Positions 1,129-29,760 of a DNA stretch of 32,000 nt are shown here, piece after piece. This DNA is from an uncultured archaeon (lineage in GTDB: Archaea > Iainarchaeota > Iainarchaeia > Iainarchaeales > CSSED10-239): positions 6,959 to 38,958 of the forward strand of contig CAZCAP010000006.1 in NCBI GenBank assembly GCA_964496765.1. Direction: 5' to 3'. The notes beneath the pieces are model-generated. The model worked only from the letters and a program-made list of their open reading frames with translations. It made no database searches and was not told where the DNA came from. Numbering within the stretch: position 1 is the stretch's first letter; the number at the start of each line of letters is the position of its first letter. Made by a program: the position numbers and the translations under genes.

Positions 1129-1181
1129 TTGCACTATATTAGACAAACAAAGAATTGCATGCATTTATTTTTTGATATTTA

Positions 1182-4160: not shown

Positions 4161-4205
4161 AGAAAATGCAAGAATTCTTATATTTGACGTATATATAGAA
4201 CATGC

Positions 4206-7781: not shown

Positions 7782-9983
7782 TTACAATTTTTTTCTTTTT
7801 AGAAGTAATGAGTTTGTTACAACACTCACACTGCTTAAGGCCATTGCTCCTCCTGCAATTATTGGAGAAAGAAGCCAACCTGTTGATAAATAAAGAACTC
7901 CTGCAGCAACTGGTATTCCAATTACGTTATAGAAAAGAGCCCAGAACATATTTTGTTTGATCTTTCTCATTGTTTGTTTTGATAACCTAATTGCTTTTGG
8001 AACATCCTGCAAATCACTTTTCATTAGAACAATGTTTCCTGTTTCCATTGCAACATCTGTTCCTGAACCCATTGCTATTCCAATGTCTGCCTGGGCAAGT
8101 GCTGGAGAATCATTTATTCCATCTCCAACCATTCCAACCTTGTACTTTCCATTCTCCTGGAGCTTCTTAACATAGCTTGCTTTGTCTTCAGGAAGAACTT
8201 CAGAAAACACATTATCAATTCCAACCTGCTTTGCAATAGCATTTGCAGTTCTCTTGTTATCCCCAGTAATCATGTATGTAATTATTCCTAATTTCTTAAG
8301 CTCGCTAACTGCTTTTGGAGATGATTTTTTAATTACATCTGCAACTCCAATAATTCCAAGAACTTTTTTTTCATCACTTAGCATCATCACTGTCTTTCCT
8401 TTGGTTTCAAGCTCCTGCATTTTTTCTAAAAACATTTTGTGTGGTATATTCTTCTGTGTCATAAGCTTGGTGTTCCCAAAGTAATAGGTTTTACTATTTA
8501 ATTTTGCAGTTATTCCATAACCTGATATTGCTTTAAAGTTTGTTGTATTTTTAAAACTTATTTTTTTCTCTTTTCCATAATTAACAATTGCTTCTGCAAG
8601 AGGATGCTCTGAATATTTTTCAATGCTTGCTGCAATTTCTAAAAATTGATTGTTTGTTATTCCTTTACTTGTAAGAATATCAGTAACAACTGGTTTACCT
8701 ATGGTTATTGTCCCAGTTTTATCAAATATCATGTACTTTAATTTATGCGCAGTTTCTAGGGCATCTCCACCCTTGATTAGTATGCCATTTTCTGCACCCT
8801 TACCTGTTCCAACCATTATTGCTGTGGGGGTAGCAAGCCCTAAAGCGCAGGGGCATGCAATAACAAGAACACCAACTGCAATTAGTATAGAGAACGCAAG
8901 GGTTTCACCCATCAATATATACCAAATAAGACCAGACACCAAAGCAATCCCAATCACAATGGGAACAAAATAGGATGAAACATTATCTGCAAACCTTTGA
9001 ATTGGGGCTTTCTTTCCTTGTGCATCCTCAACAAGCTTAATTATGTGTGCAAGAGTTGTATCTTTTCCAACTTTTGTTGCTTTAATTTTTAAACTTCCAT
9101 GCTTATTAATGGTTGCACCAATAACAAAGTCTCCTTTCTTTTTTTCTAGAGGTATACTTTCTCCTGTTATCATGCTTTCATCAATGGATGAAATTCCTTC
9201 TATAATTATTCCATCAACTGGTATTTTTTCTCCTGGTTTAACTAAAAAGACATCTCCAACCCTTAGATCCTCAACAGAAACAATTATCTCTTTATTGTTT
9301 TTAATTACAATAGCAGTCTTTGGAGACAAATTAATTAATTTTTTAATTGCATCACTTGTTCTGCCTTTTGCAATTGCTTCAAGAAGCTTTCCTAGCAACA
9401 CAAGAGTAATTAATATTATTGATATTTCAAAATATTGCATACTCCCTGGATTAAATAAAACATTGTACACACTTAATAGGTAGGCTGATAGGGTTCCAAT
9501 GGATACAAGAGTATCCATGTTTGCACTTTTATTTTTAAGTGCACCCCAGGCACCTCTATAGAATCCCCAACCAGCAATAAATTGAACTGGAGTGGCTAGT
9601 AGAAATAAAATATAATCCATGTATGGAACTTCTATGGAGAACCATCCTAGAAACATCATAGCTAGAGTTGGGATTGCAAACATTAGAGAAAACATAAATA
9701 ATTTTTTAAGCTTATTAAAATCTCTCTTTTTTTCTTCTTTTAGTTTATTTGTATCCTGATCCTGATTAATTAATTTCGCACCATATCCTCTTCCCTCTAT
9801 TGTTTTTATAATATCTAATGGAACAATTATTTGTTCATCATAGGTTATGGTTGCTTTTTCTGTAGTTAAATTTACATTTGATGAAAGAACGCCTTCTTTT
9901 TTATTTAGTCCGTTTTCTATTATTGTTGCACAGCTCGCACAATGCATTCCTTTAATTGATATATTAATCTCTTTTTTGTTCAT
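7782..9983 (-). CDS. copA: copper-translocating P1B-type ATPase
   Basis: N-terminal HMA domain GMHCASCA, actuator TGES, transmembrane CPC motif ([11 protein letters not shown]), phosphorylation site DKTGTIT, hinge [10 protein letters not shown]. 733 aa. Confidence 0.93.
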
Positions 9984-10041
9984 AAATTCCCTCTTTCATC
10001 ATATTAGCATATTATTTTGTTTAATTAAAGATCAATTGATT

Positions 10042-10596
10042 TTATTGCCCACATCCACATCCTCCTGTTGATGGTGGACTTGTTTCTTTCGCATTTAAGA
10101 TTGCTGCTTCTGTGATTGCATTTGTTACACCCTCAGAACTAACTGAGAAGAAACCTCTTCCCATGTTCATTGAGCATGCAATTAGAAAGGTTCCTTCCTT
10201 ATTAGGTGTAAACTCAATTATGTTATCTGTTGGAGTAACATATTTTCTAACACCGAAATCTCCAATAACTACACTTCTCATACACCCATCAACAGTTTCA
10301 GTATCCACTGTGATTTTTACAGGAATACCCTTCTTCAATGTATTTGGGGTAAGCACATATTCATAGTTTTCAAACCTCAAAATTGCTGTTTGTGTTTCTT
10401 GTTTTGCATTTAATTGACTAGTGTTTGATAAAGTTGTAGAATTTGATAGAGTATTGGTTGTGTTTGTTGTACTATTGTTTGTGATTGTTTTTGATGGAGT
10501 AGTGAATGCATAGGCAGATATAATTCCAAAAACTACAATTATTGCAATAACTACTAAACCCAAAACTAGAGTTCTTTTCTTTTCTTTTTTTTCCAT
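10042..10596 (-). CDS. N-anchored cupredoxin-like/metal-binding domain protein with Asn/Thr-rich linker and C-terminal GGCGCGQ tail
   Basis: One N-terminal TM, a low-complexity N/T/S linker, and a ~100-aa beta-rich domain with Cys/Met ligand candidates (DGCMRS, ACSMNMGRG). It sits between copA and copZ. Confidence 0.55.
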   Translation of the reverse strand: MEKKEKKRTLVLGLVVIAIIVVFGIISAYAFTTPSKTITNNSTTNTTNTLSNSTTLSNTSQLNAKQETQTAILRFENYEYVLTPNTLKKGIPVKITVDTETVDGCMRSVVIGDFGVRKYVTPTDNIIEFTPNKEGTFLIACSMNMGRGFFSVSSEGVTNAITEAAILNAKETSPPSTGGCGCGQ

Positions 10597-15298: not shown

Positions 15299-15898
15299 TT
15301 ATATCTTGACCTTCTTTTTCAAATAAATCCAACCAATTACTAGAACAATTACAAAGATTAATATAAGTAATATTAGGTTATAAGATTTCACTATTGTTTC
15401 AGATACCTGCTCACCAATAAAATATCCAAGACTTGTTAAAAATAAACACCAGATACCTGCTCCTAGACCAGTATATAAAATAAATTTCTTTAGATCCATT
15501 TTTGCAAACCCAGCAGGAAGAGAAATGTATTGTCTAACCAGAGGAATTAGTCTACCAATAAATGTGGTTTTCCCTCCATGTTTTATAAAATAATCATCAA
15601 TCTTCAGAAGAGATTCTTTCTTTATAAAAAACATTTTGGAATGAGATAGTAAATATTCTCTTCCAAAGTATCTTGCAATAGTATAATTGATTCCTGCTCC
15701 TAGAAGAGAACCAGCTATTGCAATTATTATAATTATCCAAAAATTAAATTGCCCTGTTGATGCTAGGTACCCAGCAGGAATTAATATAACCTCCGAAGGA
15801 AAAGGAATAAATGAACTTTCCAGGGTCATTAATAGGAAAACACCAAAGTAGCCTAAAGTAAACATCAAAGTGTTTAATGATAATAAAATAAAATCCAT
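15299..15898 (-). CDS. dedA: DedA/VTT-family membrane protein
   Basis: Characteristic FPSEVILIPAGYLA and GRLIPLVRQYISLPAG motifs. 199 aa with multiple TMs. Confidence 0.85.
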   Translation of the reverse strand: MDFILLSLNTLMFTLGYFGVFLLMTLESSFIPFPSEVILIPAGYLASTGQFNFWIIIIIAIAGSLLGAGINYTIARYFGREYLLSHSKMFFIKKESLLKIDDYFIKHGGKTTFIGRLIPLVRQYISLPAGFAKMDLKKFILYTGLGAGIWCLFLTSLGYFIGEQVSETIVKSYNLILLILIFVIVLVIGWIYLKKKVKI

Positions 15899-15931: not shown

Positions 15932-16609
15932 TTAAATTAACATAGATAAGAAAAAGATTAAAAGGCTTACGGGAAGGAGAATTAATAAATAAATGATTGC
16001 TTTTTTCCTATTATCCTCTAAAATGGATAAATATATTGAAGAAATTATAATATATTCAACAATATAGATGATTACACAATAATAGGTAATGGAATATAAA
16101 GAAATACCAACTGTTTCACTAATCTCAGGAACAGATGTTTTTAAGCTCTTAATTAGAGAGATTACAATTCCAAGTATACCAGGAACAATCAAACTACTAG
16201 AGAAGAGAATGGTGTACTTCTGCATAAGAAGATTTGAGTTTCGTTCATCAAGAACCTGCTTGGTTTTAATAAAATTATCAGCAACAGACTTATAGTCAGA
16301 AAAGGAAATGGTTCCACTTGTTGTAGATAAATAGATTAAATCTAGGAATCTATTTAGTATCTCTGAATTATATTTCCTTTTTAAAATATCAAACAACTCT
16401 TTAGGTTTGTGGCCTTTATTTATTTTTAATAGAATATCTGTAAAGTTTCTAGAAATTATTTTATTTCTTGATTTAGAGAGTTTTTCAAGAATTATTTTTA
16501 AATCATTACTCTTGGGAATGGAAGAAAGCTTAAGTATTTCATCAACCAATGCATTTTCTAATTTTCTTCTCTCAAGAGAAAAATAATATTTTTCAAATAA
16601 ATTAAACAT
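15932..16609 (-). CDS. half-size T2SSF-like platform protein (FlaJ/TadC-like)
   Basis: N-terminal ~130-aa helical cytoplasmic domain followed by C-terminal TM helices. The architecture mirrors the upstream gene and it follows the secretion ATPase. Sequence-level assignment is weak. Confidence 0.5.
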   Translation of the reverse strand: MFNLFEKYYFSLERRKLENALVDEILKLSSIPKSNDLKIILEKLSKSRNKIISRNFTDILLKINKGHKPKELFDILKRKYNSEILNRFLDLIYLSTTSGTISFSDYKSVADNFIKTKQVLDERNSNLLMQKYTILFSSSLIVPGILGIVISLIKSLKTSVPEISETVGISLYSITYYCVIIYIVEYIIISSIYLSILEDNRKKAIIYLLILLPVSLLIFFLSMLI

Positions 16610-16627: not shown

Positions 16628-17371
16628 CTATAGAGGATTATTGGATCTTATTACTAATAGCAGCAACATATCAATTAACGGGAAAAGTACGATTGTAATA
16701 AACACAATTGTAATTGGAGAAAAACTAAGTTCGAGAAAATTACTTCCCACCAATAAAAACATTAGAAACATGGATGGAATGATTGCTGAAAAAACAATAA
16801 ACAATAATGTTAATAAATTTAATTTAGTTGAGAATCTCCTAACCATTTGGGTTTGATTTTCAAAAATGGTGTCAGATAATGTTTTTAGAGAATACTCCTT
16901 ATTCCTGACTCCTGAATCCATAATATCTTCAATTTGATAAAAAACTCTTTCAAGTTCAGGATAACTTGAGGACACTGAAAACAAGGCATCCTGTAAATTA
17001 AAACCATGATTTCTAACCAAATACAAAGCTTCTCCAATCAATCTCCCAATCTCACTATTATCACACCTTGATTCAAGCGCAATCTTGAGCGGAATATTCT
17101 TTGAAAGATCAGTTGCTAAATTATTTAAAAAGAAGGGAAGTTCCTGTTGTATTTTTTTTCTTCTGGTTTCTAAAACTATTTTTTTATTAAAAAAAGTTAT
17201 TGAAAAGAAAATTATAAATGAAAGAATAAATATATAAATTAAATTATTAAATGATAATTCAAATAAACTATAATCCACAAGCTTGTATATAAGAAACAAC
17301 GAAAGAAAGAGAACACAATAGAGAATTAAGTTCTTTCTTGAAAAAATCTCTTCAATAATCTTTGGCATCAT
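16628..17371 (-). CDS. half-size T2SSF-like platform protein (FlaJ/TadB-like)
   Basis: Two TMs, a cytoplasmic helical domain (ELPFFLNNLATDLSKNIPLKIALES...), then C-terminal TMs. Its start overlaps the ATPase stop by 4 nt (ATGA coupling). Confidence 0.65.
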   Translation of the reverse strand: MMPKIIEEIFSRKNLILYCVLFLSLFLIYKLVDYSLFELSFNNLIYIFILSFIIFFSITFFNKKIVLETRRKKIQQELPFFLNNLATDLSKNIPLKIALESRCDNSEIGRLIGEALYLVRNHGFNLQDALFSVSSSYPELERVFYQIEDIMDSGVRNKEYSLKTLSDTIFENQTQMVRRFSTKLNLLTLLFIVFSAIIPSMFLMFLLVGSNFLELSFSPITIVFITIVLFPLIDMLLLLVIRSNNPL

Positions 17372-19248
17372 TTACGTTTATCTCCCTTAGCACTCATGGT
17401 TTGAATGAAAAATGAAAGAACATCCTCTGGGGAGGGGGTGGTGGTTTTGGAAGCACACTTGTCCAAGAAATATAGCAAGCTTTTATTTTGTTTTTTAAAT
17501 AGTTTATTTAATTCCAGTTGATTTTTAACTCCAAAAGCAATTCTAAATTTATCAAACAATTTTTTGGAAGTTCCAACCTTTACAAGCTTATCTTTATTTA
17601 TATCAAATTCAAATAATCTATTTAATACAGGCTTATTATTTTCAAAGATAACTTCACAAATCTCAGTTACATTTCTTAGATCTGATACCTTACCTTTATT
17701 ATATTTATTATATCTTCTTTGAACAATAATTAAATCAATAACTCCTAAATCATTCTCAATAACACCATAGGAAACTAATCTTAAAAGTGCTTCCTTTGCA
17801 CTTTGAGAATGGAAAGTGGTATAGGTTCCCTTTGCTTGCCCACAGAGCATAGAATCAATTATCGCTTTTGATTCATCCCTTGATCTCACTTCTCCAATAA
17901 CAACCCTATCGGGTCTCATCCTAAGTGTATTAATAACTAGAGAATCAAGAGTAACTCCCAAATCAGGATTAACAAGAGTAAATATCTTGTGCTCATGGGG
18001 TATGTTTATTTCTCTAACCTCTTCAACCACAACAAACCTTTCATCAGGTGGAATAAAAGAAAGAAGAGCATTAAGAGTTGTGGTCTTCCCAGAACCTGTA
18101 TTCCCAACAACAAACACATTTGAATCAGTTAAAAAAGCCAGAGATAAAAATGAAAGCGCATCAATGGACAACGTGTTTCTTTTAATTAAATCAATAATAG
18201 TAAATGGCTTTTCTGAGAATTTTCTAATTGTAACACACACACTTTCAGTAATTGGTGAAATTATTGCATTCATTCTAGACGCACCAATGGTTGCATCCAA
18301 AAGTGGATTCTTCAAAGTTATATACTTATTGGTTTCCCAGGATAATTTATTAATTAAATCTTTAATTATTTTAGAAGACGTATATACTAAGTTTGTTTCA
18401 AGCCACCCAAAGATTCTATGATACACAAAGACTGGTTTGTTTTCTCCAATTATTGAGATTTCTTCTAGACTATCATCCACAAGTAGGTTTGATAGAGGCC
18501 CATAGTCATAGAGATTACCATAGGCAATCAAAAGAATATAATTGAATTGATCAGATTCCAGTTCTATCTTTTCTCTAAGGCAATAATTAACTAGTGTTTC
18601 TTCAAGTTCGTTTTTTACAATTCCTGGTAGTTTATCAGGAGTATTTATTCTAACCTGTTTTTCATTATCATCTTTAATATCAAACCTATCCCTGTATTCA
18701 TCTATAACAAAATTAATTATTTCAATCTCATCAATTGAGAGAATGGATTCCTCAATAAAATAATATTTTTTATTTGAATCATCTATATATACGTTTTTAG
18801 AAAGGTTTTTTTTATTAAACTCAAATATTCTATAGCCTAGATATTTATTAATTATTTCTAACTCATCACTTTCACTAGTGTCATTAACCAGTTCTAAAAT
18901 ATCTGGATTGTTTTTTAAACAATATCTATTAAATGATTGTTGAGAACATAGATCACACTTATATGCTTTATTCTTTTTAACTACAATTGCATTGTGTGGG
19001 CAAACAGCAATACATTCTAAACATCCAGTACATCTTTCTGGATCAATAGATACAACCCCCTTTGCAGAGAAGTAGATTGCATTTGTTTTGCAGGCACCTA
19101 AACAGGGAGCATCTTCACAATTCTTACAATTAAATACAATTAGAGCATCTCTTACTTTAAATTCATAGGGGCAATTAAGAAATAGGTTTTTATTTTTTCT
19201 CGTAGATAGTACTTTAGCTTTGTCTTCATCTTTAAATTTAATATACAT
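17368..19248 (-). CDS. type II/IV secretion (FlaI/TadA/VirB11-class) ATPase with N-terminal 4Fe-4S ferredoxin-like domain
   Basis: Walker A GNTGSGKTTTLNALL, Asp/Walker B region RPDRVVIGEVRSRDE, His-box TFHSQSA. The N-terminal ~110 aa carry 12 Cys in the patterns CxxCxxxxCxxxC, CxxCxxCxxxCP and CxxCx8C. Confidence 0.85.
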   Translation of the reverse strand: MYIKFKDEDKAKVLSTRKNKNLFLNCPYEFKVRDALIVFNCKNCEDAPCLGACKTNAIYFSAKGVVSIDPERCTGCLECIAVCPHNAIVVKKNKAYKCDLCSQQSFNRYCLKNNPDILELVNDTSESDELEIINKYLGYRIFEFNKKNLSKNVYIDDSNKKYYFIEESILSIDEIEIINFVIDEYRDRFDIKDDNEKQVRINTPDKLPGIVKNELEETLVNYCLREKIELESDQFNYILLIAYGNLYDYGPLSNLLVDDSLEEISIIGENKPVFVYHRIFGWLETNLVYTSSKIIKDLINKLSWETNKYITLKNPLLDATIGASRMNAIISPITESVCVTIRKFSEKPFTIIDLIKRNTLSIDALSFLSLAFLTDSNVFVVGNTGSGKTTTLNALLSFIPPDERFVVVEEVREINIPHEHKIFTLVNPDLGVTLDSLVINTLRMRPDRVVIGEVRSRDESKAIIDSMLCGQAKGTYTTFHSQSAKEALLRLVSYGVIENDLGVIDLIIVQRRYNKYNKGKVSDLRNVTEICEVIFENNKPVLNRLFEFDINKDKLVKVGTSKKLFDKFRIAFGVKNQLELNKLFKKQNKSLLYFLDKCASKTTTPSPEDVLSFFIQTMSAKGDKRK

Positions 19249-19398: not shown

Positions 19399-20136
19399 TT
19401 AATACAGTTCAGAAAAATTAGTTAACATGGTTGTGTTAAGTCTACCCTCAATTCCATTCATCGAATCAGATATACTTATATTAATATCATTAATCTGAGA
19501 ATTAACATTATCAAATTGAGTAGTTACGTTATTGAATTCATTCATGATATTATTATCAATATAATTTTGCACATCATACACTCTTGCATCAACTGAGCTT
19601 ATTCTTTCAGTTAGATTATTATCCAAATCATCTAATCTCTGCACAAGTGCAACGTACTGTTCTCTCTGGGATCTTGAAACTTCAACAATTAAATTAAGTC
19701 CTGTTGAAACGTGGAATGAAGATGAAATTTGCAATACCCTTGGGGTTCCATTTCTAATTACTGTACACTTTACTGCTTCTTCATACACTCCTTCATATTC
19801 AGGAGTAATGAATGAAACATAATAGTTCCCAGGAACTGTGGTTGGACCCATTTCCCTATCCACAAAGAAGAAAGATTTATCAGGGTATAGTAAGGATACA
19901 ATACAATTTGCATCAGTTATTGATATTCCTTTGGCATCCTGTAGCCTAACAATAATCTGACCCTGTTCATTACTTATGTATTCAGTTCCAGATACCATCA
20001 TAAGATCTGATGCTACTCCCCTTCCTTTAAAGTAAAATATAAGAAAGATGCCTATTGCAAGAAGAACAACTATACCTATTACTAGGTATATTCTTTTTCT
20101 ATTTCTACTTTCATGCATATGCTGTCTAAACATCAT
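19399..20136 (-). CDS. N-anchored surface protein, paralog of 21689-22186, with Asn-rich C-terminal region
   Basis: Basic N-terminus plus one TM, then a globular domain alignable with the 165-aa ORF (VSxTEY..IVRLxDxxG..C.V..L.PDKS.FV..PGN.Y..G.YE..V.C..S.SFH), then an N/D/S-rich segment with NxS/T sequons. Confidence 0.6.
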   Translation of the reverse strand: MMFRQHMHESRNRKRIYLVIGIVVLLAIGIFLIFYFKGRGVASDLMMVSGTEYISNEQGQIIVRLQDAKGISITDANCIVSLLYPDKSFFFVDREMGPTTVPGNYYVSFITPEYEGVYEEAVKCTVIRNGTPRVLQISSSFHVSTGLNLIVEVSRSQREQYVALVQRLDDLDNNLTERISSVDARVYDVQNYIDNNIMNEFNNVTTQFDNVNSQINDINISISDSMNGIEGRLNTTMLTNFSELY

Positions 20137-20200
20137 ATTATTATTTCAACTCAGAGATTATGACTATATTATATAGTTAATATATAAAAACAAAAAGTAT

Positions 20201-20232
20201 AAAAAACCAGGGGATTTCAATTTATCCCCCTG
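20201..20232 (-). terminator. hairpin plus T-run downstream of the repeat-protein gene
   Basis: Stem GGGGAT (20210-20215) / ATCCCC (20224-20229), extendable with one bulge. On the minus strand it is followed by TTTTTT (20201-20206), and it lies ~25 nt after the stop at 20255. Confidence 0.4.
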
Positions 20233-20254
20233 ATCTTCCATAAACCAAATTCAT

Positions 20255-21622
20255 TTATGATATTATTCTTACATCAATCTGGCTCTCTTGATTATCTAAA
20301 ATATTGTGAGCTGTAGAATTAATGTCTGTTGTTTGTGCCTTAATAATACCAATGTCTGTTAATAATGTATCAATTCTTGATGACACACTTCCTGAAAGGT
20401 ATTCCCAGGTTGTTGTTGTTGTATTATCTATTTCATCAAGTCTTGCTACCTGTTCATCATGCATTACAACAGCAGCTGCTTTGATACTATATATTTCTTG
20501 ACATAGAGCACTTGAGTCGGTCTCTGGGTTTGAACAAAACTGTTCAAGTAAAGTAATATTTCCATCAATGTTTTCAAATCTTTGGTCAATTGCTGCTCTA
20601 TCTGTATCATTCATAGCATGTGTTGTTAACCATGTGGTATCATCCTTAACACTCTGTACCTGAGTTGATAATTGATCAAGCATAGCGTTTAATTGAAGGT
20701 TAAGATCTCCAGCAACAAGTCCTATAATCATATCTGATAAAGAAGCATTAACATCTGCTAAATCAGATTTAATTTCCTGTCCTGTTATAACAACCTGTCC
20801 ATTAACACTAACTTCTAAACTATCAAGTCTTGCACTTAGGAAATTATTTGAATCTAAGAATTTCTGTGCAATTAAAGCATTTGTGTTATTAAATTGGTTT
20901 GTTATTTGGCTTGATAAACTTACGTTCAATGAATCTAAAATTCCTGTTAGGTTTGTATTAACATTTGCTAAATTTGTGTTTATCTCGTCACCAGTATCTT
21001 GAACCTTAGCATTCAAACTTACATTCACATTTTCAAGTTGAGCAGAAAGCTCAGCAAACTTGGTTGTCATTTGTGTTGCAAGGTTTGTGTTTACTGTGTT
21101 CAATAGATTTGTTAAAGATGTATCAACATTTGTTAAGTGAGCATTTATTGAATCACCTGTTGCTTCCATCTTACCATCTAAACTTAAGTTAATGTCCTGT
21201 AAATTATTTCCAAGAGTCTCAAATTCAGAACCCATTTGGTTTGAAAGGTTTGTATTTACTGTGTTTAGGATACTTGTCATTGATGCATTTACATCACTTA
21301 GGTTTGTGGTTATTATTTGTCCAGTTTCAGCAACCTTAGCCATGATTGTTAAGTTAACATCATTTAGTTGTGCTGTTGATGCATTAAATTCGCTTAACAT
21401 CTGACCAGATAAGCTAGTATTAACAGAATTTAATAAACTTGTTAATGATGTATTAGATGTGCTTATACTTGTTTGTAATTCCTGTCCTGTGGTTACAACA
21501 GTTCCAGTAATACTTACATTAACAGCATCTAGTTGAGTTCCAAGTGTATTAATTCCTTCATTTAATTGGTTTGTTACACCTGCATTAACATCTGTTATTA
21601 AATCATTTAAGTTTGTATTCAT
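20255..21622 (-). CDS. Asn/Thr/Ser-rich tandem-repeat surface protein, C-terminal portion of an interrupted gene
   Basis: 455-aa ORF made of ~55-aa repeats (xLxxVNxSLxxxxxxTGxxIxTNLxxVNxxLTxxLNxVNTxLxxQMxxxF). No signal/TM and no SD before its Met. The reading frame continues upstream in phase to the TAA at 21689-21691. Confidence 0.6.
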   Translation of the reverse strand: MNTNLNDLITDVNAGVTNQLNEGINTLGTQLDAVNVSITGTVVTTGQELQTSISTSNTSLTSLLNSVNTSLSGQMLSEFNASTAQLNDVNLTIMAKVAETGQIITTNLSDVNASMTSILNTVNTNLSNQMGSEFETLGNNLQDINLSLDGKMEATGDSINAHLTNVDTSLTNLLNTVNTNLATQMTTKFAELSAQLENVNVSLNAKVQDTGDEINTNLANVNTNLTGILDSLNVSLSSQITNQFNNTNALIAQKFLDSNNFLSARLDSLEVSVNGQVVITGQEIKSDLADVNASLSDMIIGLVAGDLNLQLNAMLDQLSTQVQSVKDDTTWLTTHAMNDTDRAAIDQRFENIDGNITLLEQFCSNPETDSSALCQEIYSIKAAAVVMHDEQVARLDEIDNTTTTTWEYLSGSVSSRIDTLLTDIGIIKAQTTDINSTAHNILDNQESQIDVRIIS

Positions 21623-21700
21623 ATTTGAGATATTAGTTGTTAATATTTCGTTTGTGTCTGCAATCTGTGCACTTAAAGAAACATTTACTTATCCAAGGTT
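20666..21700 (-). repeat. ~165-bp (55-aa) coding tandem repeat, about six diverged units
   Basis: Units start at protein positions 30, 85, 140, 195 and 265 of the 455-aa ORF. One further unit spans the in-frame stop and begins at NLG* in the upstream ORF. Confidence 0.7.
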
Positions 21701-22186
21701 TGCATCAAGTGCATCTACCTTTTCAGTAACTATTCTTACCTGCTCAAGAGCTGGGTTTAAGTGGAATGATTGAGATGTTTTAATTGTTTGTGTTCCCTTA
21801 AGACAGGTTACTTCCTGTTCATAGGTTCCAAGCGGAGCACCAGCAAGTGAATCTGTTCTATACCAGTTTCCTGGGATATTTGATAAAGCTAGTGGCTGAT
21901 CATCAACAAATGTACTCTTATCCGGTTTTAGGATAGTTACGTTACATGAGTCAACTGCATAGGGGTCTCCTCTAAAATCAGCAAGTCTTACTATTGTTGA
22001 GGCAACGTCATCTCTCCAATATTCAGTGTGGGATACCCAACTGACTACTGGTTCATTAACTGTTTGCTTACCATCAGTGTATGCAAATGCAAAGAATGCA
22101 ATTACAACTATCACAATGGTTGAAACAATACCCCATCTAATAAGCTTTTTTTTCTTATTTGTATATTTTGGATTTAAATCTTCCAT
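21689..22186 (-). CDS. N-anchored surface protein, N-terminal portion of an interrupted gene
   Basis: GGTGA (22191-22195, minus strand) lies 4 nt upstream of the ATG. It has a basic N-terminus, one TM and a globular domain paralogous to 19399-20136. It ends at a TAA inside a repeat unit. Confidence 0.65.
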   Translation of the reverse strand: MEDLNPKYTNKKKKLIRWGIVSTIVIVVIAFFAFAYTDGKQTVNEPVVSWVSHTEYWRDDVASTIVRLADFRGDPYAVDSCNVTILKPDKSTFVDDQPLALSNIPGNWYRTDSLAGAPLGTYEQEVTCLKGTQTIKTSQSFHLNPALEQVRIVTEKVDALDANLG

Positions 22187-24915: not shown

Positions 24916-25620
24916 ATGGTCTTTCAAAACGTTGTTGAACTCAAAGAAGTTTATAAAATCTATAAAATGGGAACTAATGAAGTTCATGCTCTTGATGGAG
25001 TAACTCTAACAATTAGAAAAGGGGAATTTGTTTCTATTATGGGTGCATCCGGTTCTGGCAAATCAACAATGATGCACATAATTGGTGCCCTTGATCTTCC
25101 AACAAAAGGAGAAGTACTAATTAATAATAAGAAATTATCGAGTTTATCTGAAGATGAGCTTGCAAAAATTAGAGGTAAATCCATTGGTTTTGTTTTTCAA
25201 GAATTCAATCTAATTCCAACATTAACAGCTCTTGAAAACGTAAATCTTCCTGTTCTTTTCCAGGATGACGATGGTAATGATGATCACATGAATAGATGTA
25301 AGGCATTACTTGGGTTAGTTGGGTTACAAGATAGATTAGATCATAGACCCAATGAATTATCTGGTGGCCAACAGCAGAGAGTTGCAATTGCAAGAGCTCT
25401 TGCAAATAATCCAGAAATTATTCTAGCTGACGAACCAACAGGCGCTCTCGATTCAAAATCAAGTCTAGAAATAATAGAGCTTCTTAAAAAACTAAACACA
25501 GACGGAAATACAATTATAATTATAACGCACGATAAAAACATTGCTCAACATGCAAGAAGAAATGTTTTTTTAAAAGATGGTAAAATAATTAGTGACAAAA
25601 TAGTGAAAAAATATGGTTAA
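24916..25620 (+). CDS. ABC transporter ATP-binding protein, MacB/LolD-type
   Basis: Walker [11 protein letters not shown]-loop, signature [15 protein letters not shown], Walker [14 protein letters not shown]-loop ITHD. Confidence 0.92.
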
Positions 25621-26488
25621 GCTAAATAGAACCACAAACATTAAAGAAATATTAGGAACAAATAAGCACATAGATAAAAACATAAGAATAAAATTGAAGA
25701 AAAGAATAGAAAAACAAATCAAAAAAAGCATAACCCAAATAGCATTTGATAGGTATTTTTCTAAAAAGTATGCTATATATAGAAAACAGGCCAAACTAAT
25801 AATACTACAAAGTCAAAAAATGATTAGAAATATTAATCAGAATCCAAAACTCAAGACTGCACAACTATTATTCATAGACAGGGATGCAATACCATTCATG
25901 CAAACCATGAAAATACTTGAACAAAAACAAGGAAATAATGAACATATATTTGGAAATGTATTATTTAGTGATAAGCTATTCAAAGATTACATAAAGTTCG
26001 TTGGAATAGCAAGTATAATTAAACAAAAATCACCAGGAATACAATTAATTTCAAAATATATTGAACAATTAGAAAATGCTCCTGAATTTAAAGAATATAA
26101 AACCCAAAAAACAATTAAAAATATAGATCCATCCAAACCCATCATAATAATTGATTCGGGAATTGTTGGAAGCCACTTAAAAATAAATGAAGCCATGTTG
26201 AATTACATATTCCCAAATACAAAGATATATACAGGATTATTTTATCATAATCGATTATCTAAAAATACAGTGGACTTCACCATAGCAGAAAACAAAGTAA
26301 ACACAGTATTTAAACAATTTGCAATCAAACAAGCAGAATTAGAAAAAATCCCAAAATTCGAAAACAAGTTAGAATCAATAAAAAATGGGGAAACAATTAG
26401 AACAAACAAAAGGGAACCACAAAATCCTATCTCCGCAAAAATTTTCGCAATAGCTTTGGGTAATGAATTATTAAAATATACAAAATAA
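25613..26488 (+). CDS. hypothetical soluble Lys-rich protein embedded in the ABC operon
   Basis: 291-aa ORF whose ATG overlaps the ATPase stop by 8 nt. No TM and no recognisable motif. Confidence 0.55.
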   Translation: MVKLNRTTNIKEILGTNKHIDKNIRIKLKKRIEKQIKKSITQIAFDRYFSKKYAIYRKQAKLIILQSQKMIRNINQNPKLKTAQLLFIDRDAIPFMQTMKILEQKQGNNEHIFGNVLFSDKLFKDYIKFVGIASIIKQKSPGIQLISKYIEQLENAPEFKEYKTQKTIKNIDPSKPIIIIDSGIVGSHLKINEAMLNYIFPNTKIYTGLFYHNRLSKNTVDFTIAENKVNTVFKQFAIKQAELEKIPKFENKLESIKNGETIRTNKREPQNPISAKIFAIALGNELLKYTK

Positions 26489-26495
26489 GACACAT

Positions 26496-27728
26496 ATGAA
26501 AAACATATTTTTATTTGTTATTCAAAATCTAAGACGTAGAAAACTTAGAAGTTGGTTAACTGTAATTGGTATAATCGTTGGAGTTCTTGCAATAGTTTCA
26601 CTAATGTCTCTATCCCAAGGATTAAAAGATTCAATTACAAATGAATTTGATAAGCTGGGAGCACAGAAAATAACAATTACTTCAAAATTAAATGCACTTG
26701 GTGCAGAAACAAATAAAGGCCTAACAACAGATGATATAAGAGAAATTAAAAAATTAGGGGATATTCAGGATGTAATAGGTAAAATAAATTCTGGACTACT
26801 AATTAAGTATAATGGAGAAAGTAAATTTCTAACAGTTACTGGCTATGACACCACACAAATGATAGAAATATTCAAGCAGGACAATGTTGAACTACTTAAG
26901 GGTAGACTTCCAGCATCTCAAAAAGCAAGAGAAATTATTGTTGGCTATGGGTTTTATTCGGTGGATAAAACTAGTGGTGTTTCTTCTTCTCCATTGGGTT
27001 TCGAAAGTAGTTCTTTTAAAAAAAAAATAGATGTTGGATCTGAGGTTGAGATTAATAATGAAAACTATAGGGTTGTTGGTATTCTCAAGGACACAGGAAA
27101 TGCACAAACCAATAGAAATTGTTATATGCCCATTGAAACCCTAAGAAAAATAACAGGAGCTAGTGAAACCAGCGTTGATTCAATTTTTGCAATTGTGAAA
27201 GATGGAAGAGATGTTGAAATTGTGGGAGATAAAATTAAGGATAGACTTGAAAAGTTTAGAGGAGAATTAGATTTTGATATATCAACTCCAGCAAAAGCTA
27301 GCAAAGATAGGGAAGATATGCTAAACATTGTTTCAATAGTAGTTATTGGTATTGCTTCTATCTCTCTACTAGTTGGAGGAATAGGAATAATGAATTCAAT
27401 GTACACTTCTGTTCTTGAAAGAAGAAAGGAAATAGGTGTGCTTAAAGCAATTGGAGCAAGAAGACAGGACATATTAAATATATTTCTTCTAGAATCAGGA
27501 TTAATAGGATTAATTGGTGGTCTTCTAGGAACAATAGTAGGTTTCCTACTAGCCTATGGGGTTAACTTTGTTGGAAATCAGCTTGGAACACCTCTTGCAA
27601 TTGCATTTAATTTCAATATAGTTTTAATTGCATTGGGCTTTTCGTTTTTCCTAGGTTTGCTTTCTGGGTTTCTACCAGCCTACAGGGCATCAAGACAAGA
27701 AGCTGTAGAAGCTCTTCATGAGGAATAA
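26496..27728 (+). CDS. ABC transporter permease, MacB/FtsX-type (permease 1)
   Basis: N-terminal TM, a ~230-aa extracytoplasmic domain, and a C-terminal FtsX block GGIGIMNSMYTSVLERRKEIGVLKAIGARRQDI plus 3 TMs. Confidence 0.88.
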   Translation: MKNIFLFVIQNLRRRKLRSWLTVIGIIVGVLAIVSLMSLSQGLKDSITNEFDKLGAQKITITSKLNALGAETNKGLTTDDIREIKKLGDIQDVIGKINSGLLIKYNGESKFLTVTGYDTTQMIEIFKQDNVELLKGRLPASQKAREIIVGYGFYSVDKTSGVSSSPLGFESSSFKKKIDVGSEVEINNENYRVVGILKDTGNAQTNRNCYMPIETLRKITGASETSVDSIFAIVKDGRDVEIVGDKIKDRLEKFRGELDFDISTPAKASKDREDMLNIVSIVVIGIASISLLVGGIGIMNSMYTSVLERRKEIGVLKAIGARRQDILNIFLLESGLIGLIGGLLGTIVGFLLAYGVNFVGNQLGTPLAIAFNFNIVLIALGFSFFLGLLSGFLPAYRASRQEAVEALHEE

Positions 27729-28407
27729 AAAAGTGATAACTTTGAAAGGATATGGACGTCTAAGAATTGAAAAAAAAGGGCTAACTTCATTTTTAATTGA
27801 AAAAAAAGAACATTGGCCAGCTTTTGGAGAAAAAGAGAGATTTAATTACACATACGTAACTAAATTTAAAAATTTACCAATTATGCATTTGAAAAGTATT
27901 AATAAAAAAAATCCAAAAATTATGATTTTAGGTGCAGGATCAGGAAGAGAATTAATTGAATTAAAAGCAATTTTGAAAAAAGAAAAAATTAATCCAGAAA
28001 TAAATGTTTTTTCTTTAACTAAATCATTAGACAAGACTGTTGAAAAAAAAATAGTTAACAAAGATTATTCACTAAATAAAGCTATTGAAAATATTGATCC
28101 GAAAATAGATAAGCAAATAATTAAAGAAAATATTGGAAAATATGATTTAGTTGTTGCCCCATTAAGTGTAGGAGTATATACTGATCATGTGGCTTATAAC
28201 ATGCTACTAACATCTTTGTTATTAAGAAAACATGGAAAAGCCTATATTGAAGTTAATTATAAAACTGAAAACTTAACAAGATATAAAAAATTCATTAGAT
28301 TATATAATAAACAATTTAATAAAAATTATGAATTTATTATTAATGAAATAAAAATGGATAGAAAACTAACTAATCAAAAGTATTTTGAAATAATTAGAAC
28401 AAACTAA
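27718..28407 (+). CDS. hypothetical protein with possible Rossmann/class I methyltransferase-like fold
   Basis: The ATG overlaps the permease-1 stop by 11 nt. A motif I-like stretch, KIMILGAGSGRELIELK, is followed later by YDLVVAPLSVG. The assignment is weak. Confidence 0.45.
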   Translation: MRNKKVITLKGYGRLRIEKKGLTSFLIEKKEHWPAFGEKERFNYTYVTKFKNLPIMHLKSINKKNPKIMILGAGSGRELIELKAILKKEKINPEINVFSLTKSLDKTVEKKIVNKDYSLNKAIENIDPKIDKQIIKENIGKYDLVVAPLSVGVYTDHVAYNMLLTSLLLRKHGKAYIEVNYKTENLTRYKKFIRLYNKQFNKNYEFIINEIKMDRKLTNQKYFEIIRTN

Positions 28408-28434
28408 AAAGAGAAAATAAAGGTGAAATAAATT

Positions 28435-29706
28435 ATGAACAAAAAAATAGGAATTAGCATTGTGCTTTTAGCATTCATGCTTTTATTAACACCGCACTTT
28501 TTTGCAGCAGGGAGTACTCCAACAGATACTTCAAATATTGATGCAAAAACATACAACTACAGTCCAAACCCAGTTCTTTCTGGAGAAGAATTTGAGCTTT
28601 GGATTCAATTAACAAACAACAGTAACTATGTAGCAAATAATGTGAGCTATGAATTAAGATCTAAATATCCGTTTACAGTTATTGATTTTAATTCAATGGG
28701 AACAGTTTCTGTTCTAGCACCACATGCAACAACAATCATTAAATATAAACTAAGAACTGATATTCAAACAACAAGCGGAACCTATGAACTAGAGTTTAAA
28801 GCAAAAAGAGGAGATAGTACAATAGCAACTATTTTCACCTATGAAATAGATGTTTCAGGATCATCTTCAATTGTTGATATCATATCATCAAATGTAGAAC
28901 AGGCAACAGTTGGAGGGACATCAAACATAGATTTAATAATTAAAAATATTGGAAAGAAGGGTGCCCAGGATATATTTGTAACTCTTGATGATTCAACAGA
29001 TGATGTTGTGAAAATATTAAATCTGAAAACACAATATCTTGATGAATTAAACATAGATTCAACAAACACATTCCATTTTGAAGCAACGGTTTCAAAGGAT
29101 GCAACCAAGAAAAACTATACACTCCCAATAACAATCACATTCAAGGACTCAGATGGGAACTATAGTTTATCAAGAAGCATTGGGTTAGAAATCAAAGATG
29201 AACCAAACATGATTATTAACATACTCGCTGTTGGATCTTTAGAAAACAACACATTATCTACTACTTCAGATGAAACATTATCTCTTGAAATATATAACAC
29301 AGGAAATATAGATGCAGAATCTGTTTATGTTGAAGTACAAACTCCAATTTCTGATAACATAAGCAATTACTTTGTGGGTTCAATTGAAAAAAACAATTAC
29401 GATAGTGTTGACCTGAAGTTTAAGACACTTAGGCTTGATAAAGGAGAATATCCATTAACAATCATCGTCCACTATAAAGACAGTAGTTTAAAGGAACAAA
29501 CAGTATCTAAAACAATTAATGTAAATATAATTGAGTCAACTACTGGAAATAGTGGTGTTGGAAAAATAATTACAACCCTCCTAACCATACTTGCAATAAT
29601 TGTTGGTATTGCTCTATTAATCCTCATAGTTAAATGGTTAATTAGAGTAATATTAAAACCAGCCTATTGTAGTTTGTTTGGAATAATCAAAAAGAAAAAG
29701 AAGTAA
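28435..29706 (+). CDS. secreted, C-terminally anchored surface protein with repeated CARDB/COG1361-like beta-sandwich domains
   Basis: GGTGA lies 8 nt upstream. Signal peptide (MNKKIGISIVLLAFMLLLTPHFFAAG). Repeated modules of the form 'P..v..Ge.f.l.i.l.N.g...A.nv...l', a C-terminal TM and a KKKKK tail. Confidence 0.7.
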   Translation: MNKKIGISIVLLAFMLLLTPHFFAAGSTPTDTSNIDAKTYNYSPNPVLSGEEFELWIQLTNNSNYVANNVSYELRSKYPFTVIDFNSMGTVSVLAPHATTIIKYKLRTDIQTTSGTYELEFKAKRGDSTIATIFTYEIDVSGSSSIVDIISSNVEQATVGGTSNIDLIIKNIGKKGAQDIFVTLDDSTDDVVKILNLKTQYLDELNIDSTNTFHFEATVSKDATKKNYTLPITITFKDSDGNYSLSRSIGLEIKDEPNMIINILAVGSLENNTLSTTSDETLSLEIYNTGNIDAESVYVEVQTPISDNISNYFVGSIEKNNYDSVDLKFKTLRLDKGEYPLTIIVHYKDSSLKEQTVSKTINVNIIESTTGNSGVGKIITTLLTILAIIVGIALLILIVKWLIRVILKPAYCSLFGIIKKKKK

Positions 29707-29760
29707 AAATTACTTCTTTCATCTTTATTTTCGCTTCTAAAAATACAAAACTAAATCAAT

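What the first reader, a model, noticed from the sequence alone, without database searches (positions are those of the whole stretch)
18922..19248. Poly-cysteine 4Fe-4S ferredoxin-like domain fused to the N-terminus of a type IV pilus/secretion ATPase
The first ~110 residues contain 12 Cys arranged as CKNCEDAPCLGAC (CxxCx4Cx3C), CTGCLECIAVCPHNAI (CxxCxxCxxxCP) and KCDLCSQQSFNRYC. These signatures match multi-cluster ferredoxin subunits of the DmsB/NrfC/HybA type. The rest of the protein is a FlaI/TadA/VirB11-class hexameric ATPase with Walker A, Asp box and His box. I know of no characterised secretion or pilus ATPase with a di-cluster ferredoxin module. The fusion would couple filament assembly or secretion to redox or oxygen state.
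Basis: partly seen in the sequence, partly recalled or inferred. Interest (0 to 1): 0.7.

Follow-up and report, generated by a model that had tools for sequence, protein, structure and literature searches.

The report
Iron-sulfur module on an archaeal pilus ATPase
A small uncultivated (DPANN-type) archaeon encodes a pilus/secretion motor ATPase that starts with a conserved ferredoxin-like module predicted to hold three iron-sulfur clusters; no paper found in the library searches here describes this combination, which is nevertheless widespread in this archaeal group.

Summary
ORF 17368-19248 (minus strand, 626 aa) is one real gene. An identical protein is called on 9 contigs read from Logan, ENA and JGI assemblies, and over 100 homologues share the architecture. 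Residues 1-~112 form a DmsB/HycB/CooF-type multi-[4Fe-4S] module: Pfam Fer4_11 is above threshold, and the fold matches solved four-cluster subunits. Residues ~136-626 form a complete archaeal GspE/FlaI/TadA-class ATPase. All 12 Cys are conserved. Deeper relatives carry 16 Cys (four clusters). The window's clade has lost exactly the four ligands of one cluster, so three clusters are predicted, not two. Other lineages lost other complete ligand sets, which argues that the clusters are real. The gene heads a conserved ATPase + TadB-like + TadC-like module in Iainarchaeota/Diapherotrites-type archaea. Unfused orthologues sit in the same synteny, so the module is an accessory. Nine full-text searches, Makarova's 2016 archaeal T4P census and NCBIfam turned up no description; only automatic annotation notes it. 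The most likely role (inferred) is an Fe-S-dependent docking or regulatory domain, ABCE1-like, that makes the motor depend on intact clusters. An obligatory electron wire is less likely, because the mid-chain cluster was lost twice and the platform proteins have no conserved Cys or His. Verdict: new variant of a known kind, interest about 0.6.

The parts
17368..19248 (-). Whole gene: 626-aa Fe-S-module::type IV filament (Tad/FlaI/GspE-class) ATPase
   Evidence: ORF. Pfam Fer4_11 + T2SSE. An identical protein is called on 9 contigs read from Logan, ENA and JGI assemblies. AF2 model has mean pLDDT 83.3.
18913..19248 (-). N-terminal multi-[4Fe-4S] ferredoxin module (residues 1-112), DmsB/HycB/CooF (Fer4_11) type; three clusters predicted
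   Evidence: Pfam. PDB sequence matches to 9mqx_E, FdnH 1kqf_B and PsrB 2vpw_B, with Cys groups II-IV aligned. AF2 N-terminal model pLDDT 86.8; Foldseek hits to four-cluster subunits. Between the two clades identity is 0.43 here against 0.46 for the ATPase C-terminal domain.
19171..19173 (-). Cys26 (followed by Pro27): the only survivor of Cys group I; predicted fourth ligand of cluster FS2
   Evidence: Invariant in 22/22 aligned homologues. Ligand census.
19090..19128 (-). Cys group II: C41, C44, C49 (predicted FS3) and C53 (predicted FS4)
   Evidence: Aligns to the CxxCx4CxxxC(P) group of FdnH, PsrB and 9mqx_E. Conserved in >=90% of sequences.
19000..19032 (-). Cys group III: C73, C76, C79 (predicted FS4) and C83-Pro (predicted FS3)
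   Evidence: Pfam Fer4 at 67-88. Alignment to solved subunits. Invariant or nearly invariant.
18904..18957 (-). Cys group IV: C98, C101, C110 (predicted FS2). The fourth position is Asn114-Pro115, a fossil of the CP motif, so cluster FS1 is lost.
   Evidence: Sixteen-Cys relatives have CxxxCP at this position.
18754..18912 (-). Linker (residues 113-165) with the conserved LGY/LGW motif (136-138) that marks the start of the ancestral, unfused ATPase
   Evidence: G138 is invariant. Unfused relatives start a few residues before LGW. The match to 2oap begins at residue 149.
18214..18753 (-). ATPase N-terminal domain (residues 166-345)
   Evidence: Sequence and fold match to afGspE 2oap and FlaI 4ii7/4ihq.
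17569..18213 (-). ATPase catalytic C-terminal domain (residues 346-560): Walker A 18082-18105, Walker B 17884-17922, His box 17809-17817
   Evidence: Pfam T2SSE. Motif positions. Invariant columns.
16628..17371 (-). TadB-like / FlaJ-first-half platform protein (247 aa); its start overlaps the ATPase stop by 4 nt
   Evidence: Orthologous to T2SSF-annotated genes next to the fused ATPases in L085-L089. Weak NCBIfam match to the first half of ArlJ/FlaJ.
15932..16609 (-). TadC-like platform protein (225 aa)
   Evidence: Weak Pfam T2SSF match. Orthologous to the T2SSF-annotated second gene in L085-L089.
19399..22186 (-). Three upstream same-strand genes: a 165-aa and a 245-aa membrane-anchored paralogue pair flanking a 455-aa repeat protein. 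They may be surface cargo or accessory proteins; not conserved elsewhere.
   Evidence: In other fused loci this position holds proteins of 871 to 3311 aa.

Best explanation
Gene 17368-19248 (-) encodes the motor ATPase of a Tad-like type IV filament module (ATPase + TadB-like + TadC-like) in a DPANN archaeon of the Iainarchaeota/Diapherotrites type. Shown: a complete GspE/FlaI/TadA-class ATPase body is preceded by a DmsB/HycB/CooF-type Fe-S module. The module is conserved about as strongly as the catalytic domain. Inferred from the ligand pattern: the ancestral module bound four [4Fe-4S] clusters (16 Cys). This protein keeps three, named on the NarH scheme. FS2 uses C98, C101, C110 and C26. 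FS3 uses C41, C44, C49 and C83. FS4 uses C73, C76, C79 and C53. That gives about 18 clusters per presumed hexamer. Inferred mechanism: the module sits at the N-terminus, where relatives (GspE N1, PilB N-domains, the FlaI N-terminus) carry their partner or membrane docking elements. It most likely acts as an Fe-S-dependent docking or regulatory domain in the manner of the ABCE1/Rli1 Fe-S domain. It would be a rigid, cluster-stabilised element needed for productive engagement with the platform or partners. Filament assembly or secretion would then depend on intact clusters, that is on anoxia, reducing conditions and iron sufficiency. It would not be an obligatory electron wire. Pilins are probably supplied in trans.
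For: The fusion is real and conserved. An identical protein is called on 9 contigs read from Logan, ENA and JGI assemblies. Most full-length hits among the best 120 carry Fer4 + T2SSE. About 27 of the best 150 representatives at 50% identity start at profile position <=36. All 12 Cys are conserved.

Module identity. Pfam Fer4_11 is above its cut-off. The nearest stand-alone relatives are CooF, HycB and DmsB-type subunits. Cys groups II-IV align to FdnH, PsrB and 9mqx_E. Foldseek finds four-cluster subunits at probability 1.0.

The clusters look real. Ligand sets are kept or lost as whole units: 48 proteins score (4,4,4,4) and 47 score (0,4,4,4). P0016/P0019 and, independently, P0287 lost II1-3 and III4 but kept II4. 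P0362 lost the FS4 set. Identity between clades in the Fe-S core is 0.43, against 0.46 for the ATPase C-terminal domain and 0.18 for the linker.

The ATPase body is complete. It matches 2oap at residues 149-583 (E 2.9e-53), and also FlaI and CpaF. The motifs are present.

The module is an accessory. Unfused orthologues in the same synteny have no separate ferredoxin gene and start right at the LGW motif. Fused and unfused forms interleave in the core tree.

Against an obligatory wire. The mid-chain cluster FS3 was lost twice. The TadB/TadC-like partners have no conserved Cys or His. No redox enzyme is conserved in the loci.

The three-gene module is conserved.
Against: No cofactor has been measured, so cluster binding and stoichiometry are inferred. 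The relatives of this module are electron-transfer subunits, and known Fe-S sensors usually use one cluster rather than three or four. The cluster-to-ligand assignment and the FS1-FS2-FS3-FS4 chain order are transferred from NarH/FdnH/PsrB. The two-domain FS1:FS2 / FS3:FS4 arrangement is cited from PMC8301774; the exact ligand mapping comes from my own knowledge. A flavin reductase gene lies a few genes downstream in 2 of 6 fused loci, which could hint at a redox partner. The FS3-less lineages are few.
Confidence: 0.55

Rival explanations
1. Electron-transfer role. The three or four clusters form a wire that carries electrons between a cytoplasmic donor or acceptor (ferredoxin, flavin reductase, hydrogenase) and the machine, the filament or a partner cell. 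Alternatively, ATP hydrolysis is coupled to electron transfer, as in nitrogenase Fe protein-like systems.
For: The closest relatives of the module are all electron-relay subunits: CooF, HycB, DmsB, NrfC, FdnH and MvhB. The window protein keeps three clusters that would be contiguous in the NarH-type chain. Flavin_Reduct genes lie near the module in L088 and L089.
Against: FS3, the middle cluster, was lost independently in the P0016/P0019 lineage and in P0287 while the flanking clusters were kept. By homology that leaves a gap too long for physiological electron transfer (geometry inferred). The TadB/TadC-like partners have no conserved Cys or His. No redox enzyme is conserved across the loci. 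Orthologous systems work without the module.
Confidence: 0.15
2. Adaptor role. The Fe-S module is a protein-protein docking surface that recruits a specific cargo or partner, for example the large upstream surface proteins or a second pilus system's components. Redox chemistry would be irrelevant.
For: Large or giant proteins (871-3311 aa) lie directly upstream on the same strand in several fused loci. A second T4P-like system sits immediately upstream in L088 and L089.
Against: The upstream proteins are not conserved between loci. The unfused orthologue in L091 also has a 1190-aa upstream protein, so that association does not depend on the module.
Confidence: 0.12
3. Relic or non-Fe-S site. 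The Cys bind zinc or nothing, and the domain is a decaying remnant without function.
For: Clusters have been lost stepwise (16 to 12 to 8 Cys), and the whole module is absent from many relatives.
Against: The Fe-S core is conserved as strongly as the catalytic domain. Losses remove exactly one complete ligand set each time, including ligands about 30-100 residues apart. Fer4 family profiles match above their curated cut-offs.
Confidence: 0.04
4. Artefact. Two genes were joined by a frameshift, a chimeric assembly or a mis-called start.
For: None was found. A few short fragments of 131-132 aa exist, but they lie on tiny contigs or at contig ends.
Against: The same 626-aa protein is found on 9 contigs read from Logan, ENA and JGI assemblies. 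The uninterrupted architecture occurs in more than 100 homologues down to about 35% identity. M1 is invariant.
Confidence: 0.01

Closest known systems
Archaeal secretion ATPase afGspE (PDB 2OAP) and archaellum ATPase FlaI (PDB 4II7/4IHQ)
   Same: The whole ATPase body (residues ~149-583) matches in sequence (E 2.9e-53 and 8.5e-36) and in fold (Foldseek E 5.7e-35 and 6.1e-33, TM normalised to target about 0.7). Walker A, Walker B, Asp-box and His-box motifs are present.
   Different: Neither has an Fe-S module; the added domain replaces their short N-terminal ~40 residues. The protein is not FlaI: the NCBIfam FlaI equivalog scores 187 bits against a cut-off of 550, and the locus has no archaellum genes.
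Bacterial Tad pilus TadA/CpaF with TadB and TadC
   Same: The gene order is an ATPase followed by two separate single-T2SSF-domain platform genes. CpaF matches in sequence and fold.
   Different: This system is archaeal. No pilin, prepilin peptidase or secretin genes lie in the immediate locus of the window. It carries an N-terminal Fe-S module.
Four-cluster ferredoxin subunits of the DmsB/NarH/FdnH/PsrB(NrfC)/HycB/CooF family (Pfam Fer4_11)
   Same: The Cys-group spacing and order match. The sequences match. The predicted fold matches. Sixteen-Cys relatives have all four groups.
   Different: Here the module is fused to a motor ATPase, with no catalytic or membrane redox partner in the locus. 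In the window protein group I is reduced to one Cys and group IV to three, so one cluster (FS1) is missing.
ABCE1/Rli1 (ribosome-recycling ATPase with an N-terminal 2x[4Fe-4S] domain); recalled from my own knowledge
   Same: It is an NTPase motor with an N-terminal ferredoxin-like Fe-S domain that acts as a rigid mechanical or docking element. That domain makes the enzyme's activity sensitive to cluster integrity. This is the functional analogy I favour.
   Different: The ATPase fold differs (ABC twin-NBD against RecA-like hexamer). The Fe-S domain type and cluster number differ. There is no homology of the fusion; this is an analogy only and was not tested here.
AapX, an 'iron-sulfur oxidoreductase' encoded in the Sulfolobus acidocaldarius aap pilus operon
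   Same: It is an Fe-S protein genetically required for assembly of an archaeal type IV pilus (PMC11178785). This is a precedent for Fe-S dependence of an archaeal T4P.
   Different: It is a separate gene, not fused to the ATPase. Its relationship to this module was not tested here.
Tetracysteine zinc site of bacterial GspE/PilB, and MinD-type ATPases with an inserted ferredoxin domain (COG1149); both recalled from my own knowledge
   Same: Both are Cys-metal sites or Fer4 domains attached to P-loop NTPases of secretion, pilus or partition systems.
   Different: The Zn site is a single site in the C-terminal domain. COG1149 proteins are SIMIBI-class ATPases unrelated to the T2SSE family.

Membership tests
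T2SSE / type IV filament ATPase superfamily (GspE-FlaI-TadA-VirB11) | Pfam PF00437 above its gathering score | tested here: met
   110.1 bits against a cut-off of 24.9, E 1.2e-31.
T2SSE / type IV filament ATPase superfamily (GspE-FlaI-TadA-VirB11) | Walker A, Asp box, Walker B and His box | tested here: met
   G382NTGSGKT, E409EVRE, R443MRPDRVVIGEVR and T478FH; invariant across 22 homologues.
T2SSE / type IV filament ATPase superfamily (GspE-FlaI-TadA-VirB11) | Two-domain (NTD+CTD) fold like solved members | tested here: met
   AF2 model pLDDT 83.3. Foldseek top hits are 2oap, 4ii7, 4ihq, 8rjf and 9e24.
T2SSE / type IV filament ATPase superfamily (GspE-FlaI-TadA-VirB11) | Hexameric assembly and ATP hydrolysis | not testable with these tools
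   Needs biochemistry or multimer modelling.
Archaellum motor FlaI (equivalog) | NCBIfam NF058587 above its cut-off, and archaellum gene context (FlaH, FlaJ, archaellins) | tested here: not met
   187 bits against a cut-off of 550. The neighbours are two split T2SSF genes, and there are no Fla genes.
Tad-like module (ATPase + two single-domain T2SSF platform proteins) | Two T2SSF-family genes directly downstream of the ATPase | tested here: met
   The window 247-aa and 225-aa proteins are orthologous to T2SSF-annotated genes in L085-L089. Direct Pfam and NCBIfam hits for the window proteins are weak.
Tad-like module (ATPase + two single-domain T2SSF platform proteins) | Cognate pilins with a class III signal peptide, and a prepilin peptidase | tested here: inconclusive
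   A crude regex found none in the 32-kb window. Peptidase_A24 and small putative pilins occur near fused ATPases in L087 and L089. Pilins in trans are common in archaea (PMC4858521).
Four-cluster ferredoxin (DmsB/NarH/HycB/CooF type, Pfam Fer4_11) | PF13247 above its gathering score | tested here: met
   33.9 bits against 26.2.
Four-cluster ferredoxin (DmsB/NarH/HycB/CooF type, Pfam Fer4_11) | Four Cys groups (16 ligands) in canonical order | tested here: not met
   The window protein has 12 Cys: group I keeps 1 of 4 and group IV keeps 3 of 4. Forty-eight relatives have all 16. The window protein is therefore a reduced, three-cluster derivative of the family.
Four-cluster ferredoxin (DmsB/NarH/HycB/CooF type, Pfam Fer4_11) | Fold similarity to solved members | tested here: met
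   N-terminal model pLDDT 86.8. Foldseek hits 9mqx_E/G, 6x1o_B, 2ivf_B, 2vpw_B, 7qv7_A/B and 1kqf_B at E 9e-5 to 6e-4, probability 1.0, TM about 0.5.
Four-cluster ferredoxin (DmsB/NarH/HycB/CooF type, Pfam Fer4_11) | Cross-ligation topology (each cluster uses three Cys of one group and the last Cys of the partner group) | tested here: met
   Indirect test. Independent lineages lost exactly such sets: I1-3 + IV4, II1-3 + III4 (twice, with II4 kept), and III1-3 + II4.
Four-cluster ferredoxin (DmsB/NarH/HycB/CooF type, Pfam Fer4_11) | Bound [4Fe-4S] clusters and association with a catalytic redox subunit | not testable with these tools
   No cofactor data exist. No redox enzyme is conserved in the loci.
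ABCE1-type Fe-S ATPase | ABC twin nucleotide-binding domains plus the ABCE1-specific Fe-S domain | not tested
   The T2SSE body is homologous to afGspE and FlaI, whose ATPase fold I take from memory to be different from ABC proteins. No comparison with an ABCE1 sequence or structure was run, so ABCE1 is used only as a functional analogy recalled from memory.

The most novel reading that the evidence does not exclude
The ring of Fe-S modules, about 18-24 clusters per hexamer at the cytoplasmic base of the machine, is a true electron conduit. It would link the redox metabolism of a metabolically minimal DPANN cell to its type IV filament or directly to a host cell. Alternatively it would couple ATP hydrolysis to low-potential electron transfer. 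Either would be an unprecedented redox function for a type IV filament motor.
Probability: 0.07. Interest if true: 0.95.

Novelty: new variant of a known kind. Interest (0 to 1): 0.6.

Why it matters
Type IV filament ATPases (pili, archaella, secretion, DNA uptake) have been studied intensively. As far as my literature searches and the curated family libraries show, none is known to carry a redox cofactor. This report describes a conserved family of such motors, each with three or four predicted [4Fe-4S] clusters. The family occurs in DPANN archaea, whose lifestyle is thought (my own background knowledge, not tested here) to depend on cell-surface appendages and contact with other cells. If the clusters gate or tune the motor, filament assembly or secretion would be directly tied to anoxia, redox state or iron supply. 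That would be a new regulatory principle for this machine class. The stepwise 16, 12 and 8 Cys series also offers natural variants for dissecting what each cluster does. The protein is a single soluble chain and could be tested by anaerobic heterologous expression.

Tried and rejected
(1) The genome-contig scan with the full-length alignment keyed on the Walker A and Walker B peptides. Taxonomy therefore rests on source names.

(2) The N-terminal profile search listed only stand-alone ferredoxins among its best 120 hits. It is useful for finding the module's relatives but not for a census of fusions. The census came and Python.

(4) A regex scan for class III signal-peptide pilins in the window found only FtsX/MacB permeases.

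(5) A search for conserved Cys or His in the platform proteins, as a possible electron relay, found none.

(6) A test for homology between the window's upstream proteins and the giant upstream proteins of other loci found none.

(7) A test for DNA tandem repeats in the upstream repeat protein found none.

(8) Looking up sample accessions in the literature to learn the habitat found nothing.

(9) The NJ tree with Fitch parsimony gives up to 33 gain or loss events. This count is inflated by truncated sequences and a crude tree, so I use only the qualitative result: fused and unfused forms interleave, and the 12-Cys clade is coherent with the 8-Cys forms nested inside it.

(10) The frameshift or assembly-artefact idea is rejected. 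Identification as archaellum FlaI is rejected.
Full report
**Observation.** The window is archaeal: a complete archaeal LSU rRNA lies at 1179-4163 on the minus strand, and GC content is about 30%. ORF 17368..19248 (-) encodes 626 aa. Twelve of its 17 Cys fall in the first 110 residues, at positions 26, 41, 44, 49, 53, 73, 76, 79, 83, 98, 101 and 110. At the Cys frequency of the rest of the protein this has a binomial p of about 1e-9. Pfam places Fer4_11 (33.9 bits, cut-off 26.2), Fer4, Fer4_6 and Fer4_7 on residues 40-104. It places T2SSE (110 bits) on residues 332-511. Walker A, Asp box, Walker B and His box are all present. The finding's coordinates cover residues 1-109, so the codon of C110 lies just outside them.

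**It is not an artefact.** An identical protein is called on 9 contigs read from Logan, ENA and JGI assemblies, always with the same neighbours. A database search returned dozens of full-length homologues, from 84% down to about 35% identity, with Fer4 and T2SSE domains in one chain. A profile search of 1.84 billion representatives at 50% identity found about 27 representatives among the best 150 whose match starts within the ferredoxin module. In an alignment of 22 homologues, M1 and eight of the Cys are invariant and the other four are at least 90% conserved. Source names place these proteins in Candidatus Iainarchaeum/'ainarchaeum', Diapherotrites and unclassified archaea. A variant form occurs in Norongarragalinales and Micrarchaeota. 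JGI's automatic annotation already calls some of them 'Flp pilus assembly CpaF family ATPase/ferredoxin'. NCBI calls them only 'ATPase, T2SS/T4P/T4SS family'.

**The two parts.**
- Residues ~149-583 match the entire archaeal secretion ATPase afGspE (2OAP, E 2.9e-53), FlaI (4II7/4IHQ) and CpaF.
- The AlphaFold model has mean pLDDT 83.3 and finds the same structures by Foldseek. The ATPase body is therefore complete.
- Unfused relatives begin a few residues before the conserved LGW/LGY motif, which is window residues 136-138. The Fe-S module is thus a clean N-terminal addition.
- The protein is not the archaellum motor: the NCBIfam FlaI equivalog scores 187 bits against a cut-off of 550.
- A profile of the N-terminal module finds CooF, HycB and DmsB-type 'Fe-S-cluster-containing dehydrogenase/hydrogenase component' proteins as its nearest stand-alone relatives, with most listed hits between E 1e-16 and 1e-26.
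- Among solved structures it matches the Fe-S subunit of a tungsten aldehyde oxidoreductase (9MQX_E), PsrB/NrfC (2VPW_B), FdnH (1KQF_B), HycB3/4 (7QV7) and polyferredoxin MvhB.
- Residue-level alignments put C41xxC44x4C49x3C53 on the group II motif, C73xxC76xxC79x3C83P on group III, and C98xxC101 on the start of group IV of FdnH, PsrB and 9MQX_E.
- The N-terminal model (pLDDT 86.8, pTM 0.77) hits the same four-cluster subunits by Foldseek (E 9e-5 to 6e-4).

**How many clusters, and are they real?** In NarH-type four-cluster proteins the clusters sit in two domains, FS1:FS2 and FS3:FS4 (PMC8301774). From my own knowledge of NarH, FdnH and DmsB, each cluster is bound by the first three Cys of one group plus the last Cys of the partner group:
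- FS1 = I1-3 + IV4
- FS2 = IV1-3 + I4
- FS3 = II1-3 + III4
- FS4 = III1-3 + II4

I scored every homologue on this scheme.
- 48 proteins have all 16 ligands.
- 47, including the window protein, lack exactly I1-3 and IV4 and keep the other 12. In the window protein the IV4 position is Asn114 followed by Pro115, a fossil of the CP motif.
- P0016 and P0019 additionally lack II1-3 and III4 but keep II4, only a few residues away. This form has 12 cluster members from several sources.
- P0287, in a 16-Cys background, independently shows the same FS3-specific loss.
- P0362 lacks the FS4 set.
- The Norongarragalinales/Micrarchaeota forms lack group III altogether and still have 12 Cys.
- Cys counts are therefore 16, 12 or 8.

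Losses that repeatedly remove one complete ligand set, including ligands 30-100 residues apart, are hard to explain unless the Cys bind clusters in this topology. The Fe-S core is also conserved between clades about as strongly as the catalytic domain (0.43 against 0.46 identity) and far more than the linker (0.18). I conclude that the window protein most likely binds three [4Fe-4S] clusters (FS2, FS3, FS4), not two. This is an inference; no cofactor has been measured.

**Context.** The ATPase stop overlaps the start of a 247-aa membrane protein, which is followed by a 225-aa one. Their own family hits are weak. They are, however, clear orthologues of the two T2SSF-annotated genes that follow every fused ATPase examined (L085-L089). 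The conserved unit is thus ATPase + TadB-like + TadC-like, a Tad-like arrangement.

What lies upstream varies. In the window there are two paralogous membrane-anchored proteins and a 455-aa repeat protein. Elsewhere there are proteins of 871 to 3311 aa. In L088 and L089 there is a second T4P-like system with a PilB3-like ATPase and small putative pilins. In L087 there is a prepilin peptidase. I found no canonical pilin in the window. This agrees with Makarova et al. 2016, who noted that archaeal ATPase/TadC modules often use pilins encoded elsewhere.

Unfused orthologues occur in the same synteny, with a large upstream protein and T2SSF and PAC2 genes downstream. They have intergenic gaps of only 108-134 bp and no separate ferredoxin gene. 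In a rough tree of the ATPase core, fused and unfused forms interleave, and the window's 12-Cys clade is coherent with the 8-Cys forms nested inside it. The module is therefore an old but dispensable accessory of this DPANN ATPase family.

**Mechanism.**

Shown:
- The protein is a real fusion.
- The ATPase is complete.
- The ferredoxin module is of the four-cluster type and under purifying selection.
- Ligand sets behave as units.
- The module is an accessory.

Inferred: the module binds three clusters and lies at the N-terminus. In related ATPases the N-terminal elements mediate docking to platform, partner or membrane (GspE N1-GspL, PilB N-domains, the FlaI N-terminus; my own knowledge).

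I consider two classes of function.

(a) An electron wire, as in all the module's relatives. Against this as a general requirement: the mid-chain cluster FS3 was lost twice while its neighbours were kept, which by homology breaks the chain. The platform proteins have no conserved Cys or His that could continue a relay. No redox enzyme is conserved in the loci. The orthologous system works without the module.

(b) An Fe-S-dependent structural, docking or regulatory domain, as in ABCE1/Rli1. There, an N-terminal two-cluster ferredoxin-like domain is a rigid element moved by the ATPase, and it makes function sensitive to cluster damage (my own knowledge). This fits the accessory nature of the module, the tolerance to losing individual clusters, and the strong conservation of those that remain. 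It would make filament assembly or secretion depend on anoxia and iron sufficiency.

I commit to (b) at roughly 0.45-0.55. I give (a) about 0.15, a redox-independent adaptor role about 0.12, and a relic or artefact together about 0.05.

**Comparison with what is known.** The ATPase is a member of the T2SSE superfamily, closest to afGspE and FlaI, with a Tad-like gene order. The module is a reduced member of the DmsB/HycB/CooF four-cluster family. The combination is what is new. Nine full-text searches were run, seven aimed at the combination itself (ferredoxin/4Fe-4S/Fer4 with FlaI, PilB, CpaF, T2SSE, DPANN, Diapherotrites) and two at other questions. None turned up a description. The 2016 census of archaeal T4P systems does not mention ferredoxin or Fe-S and predates most DPANN genomes. 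No NCBIfam model covers the fusion. The nearest precedent for Fe-S in an archaeal T4P system is AapX, a separate 'iron-sulfur oxidoreductase' gene needed for Aap pilus assembly in Sulfolobus acidocaldarius (PMC11178785). Fer4 domains are promiscuous in anaerobes, and other P-loop NTPases with Fe-S domains exist (ABCE1; MinD-type COG1149, from memory). The finding is therefore a new variant of a known kind rather than a new category.

**Verdict.** The structural interpretation is supported. The functional coupling to redox or oxygen state is plausible but untested. Interest is 0.6. A specialist in type IV filaments would find a motor bearing three or four Fe-S clusters unexpected, and it is directly testable. 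However, the organism is uncultivated, the function is unknown, and the fusion is already visible in automatic annotations.

Noticed in passing
window 1179-4163 (-): A complete archaeal 23S rRNA gene has no 16S or 5S gene anywhere in the 32-kb window. The rRNA genes appear to be unlinked.
   Followed up: partly
window 19399-22186 (-): Directly upstream of the ATPase are two paralogous proteins with N-terminal membrane anchors (165 aa and 245 aa, 31% identity). They flank a 455-aa Asn/Ser/Thr-rich protein with divergent protein-level repeats and no DNA tandem repeat. In other fused loci this position holds unrelated proteins of 871-3311 aa with no Pfam hits.
   Followed up: partly
L089 2301-7957 and L088 1-7143: A second T4P-like system lies immediately upstream of the Fe-S ATPase module. 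In L089 it comprises a PilB3-like ATPase, two T2SSF genes, three small putative pilins and DUF192. The genomes therefore carry at least two such systems, and only one has the Fe-S module.
   Followed up: no
L086, L087, L088, L089, L091 (downstream of the T2SSF genes): A PAC2-family gene recurs just downstream of the ATPase-TadB-TadC module in both fused and unfused loci. Flavin_Reduct follows it in L088 and L089. In the window's clade a VTT/DedA gene (window 15299-15898) takes this position.
   Followed up: no
P0016/P0019, P0287, P0362, P0107/P0115/P0117/P0120 (homologues, not in the window): These are natural variants of the module with different whole clusters missing (8, 12 or 13 Cys; FS3-less, FS4-less, and forms without group III). 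They form a ready-made series for testing what each cluster does.
   Followed up: partly
window 7782-10596 (-): A heavy-metal (Cu-type) P-type ATPase with an HMA domain lies next to a small cupredoxin-like protein.
   Followed up: no
window 24916-30996 (+): An ABC ATPase, two MacB/FtsX-type permeases, a CARDB-domain protein and two proteins with no Pfam hits form one same-strand cluster.
   Followed up: no
window 17368-17371: The ATPase stop codon overlaps the start codon of the 247-aa TadB-like gene by 4 nt. This suggests translational coupling of the motor and the platform.
   Followed up: no
P0083 (homologue from archaeon GW2011_AR10, 1.24-Mb contig): The orthologue named as coming from 'archaeon GW2011_AR10' is 440 aa and unfused. 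The module is therefore absent from some relatives, even though they are close enough to rank among the best 120 matches to the window protein.
   Followed up: no
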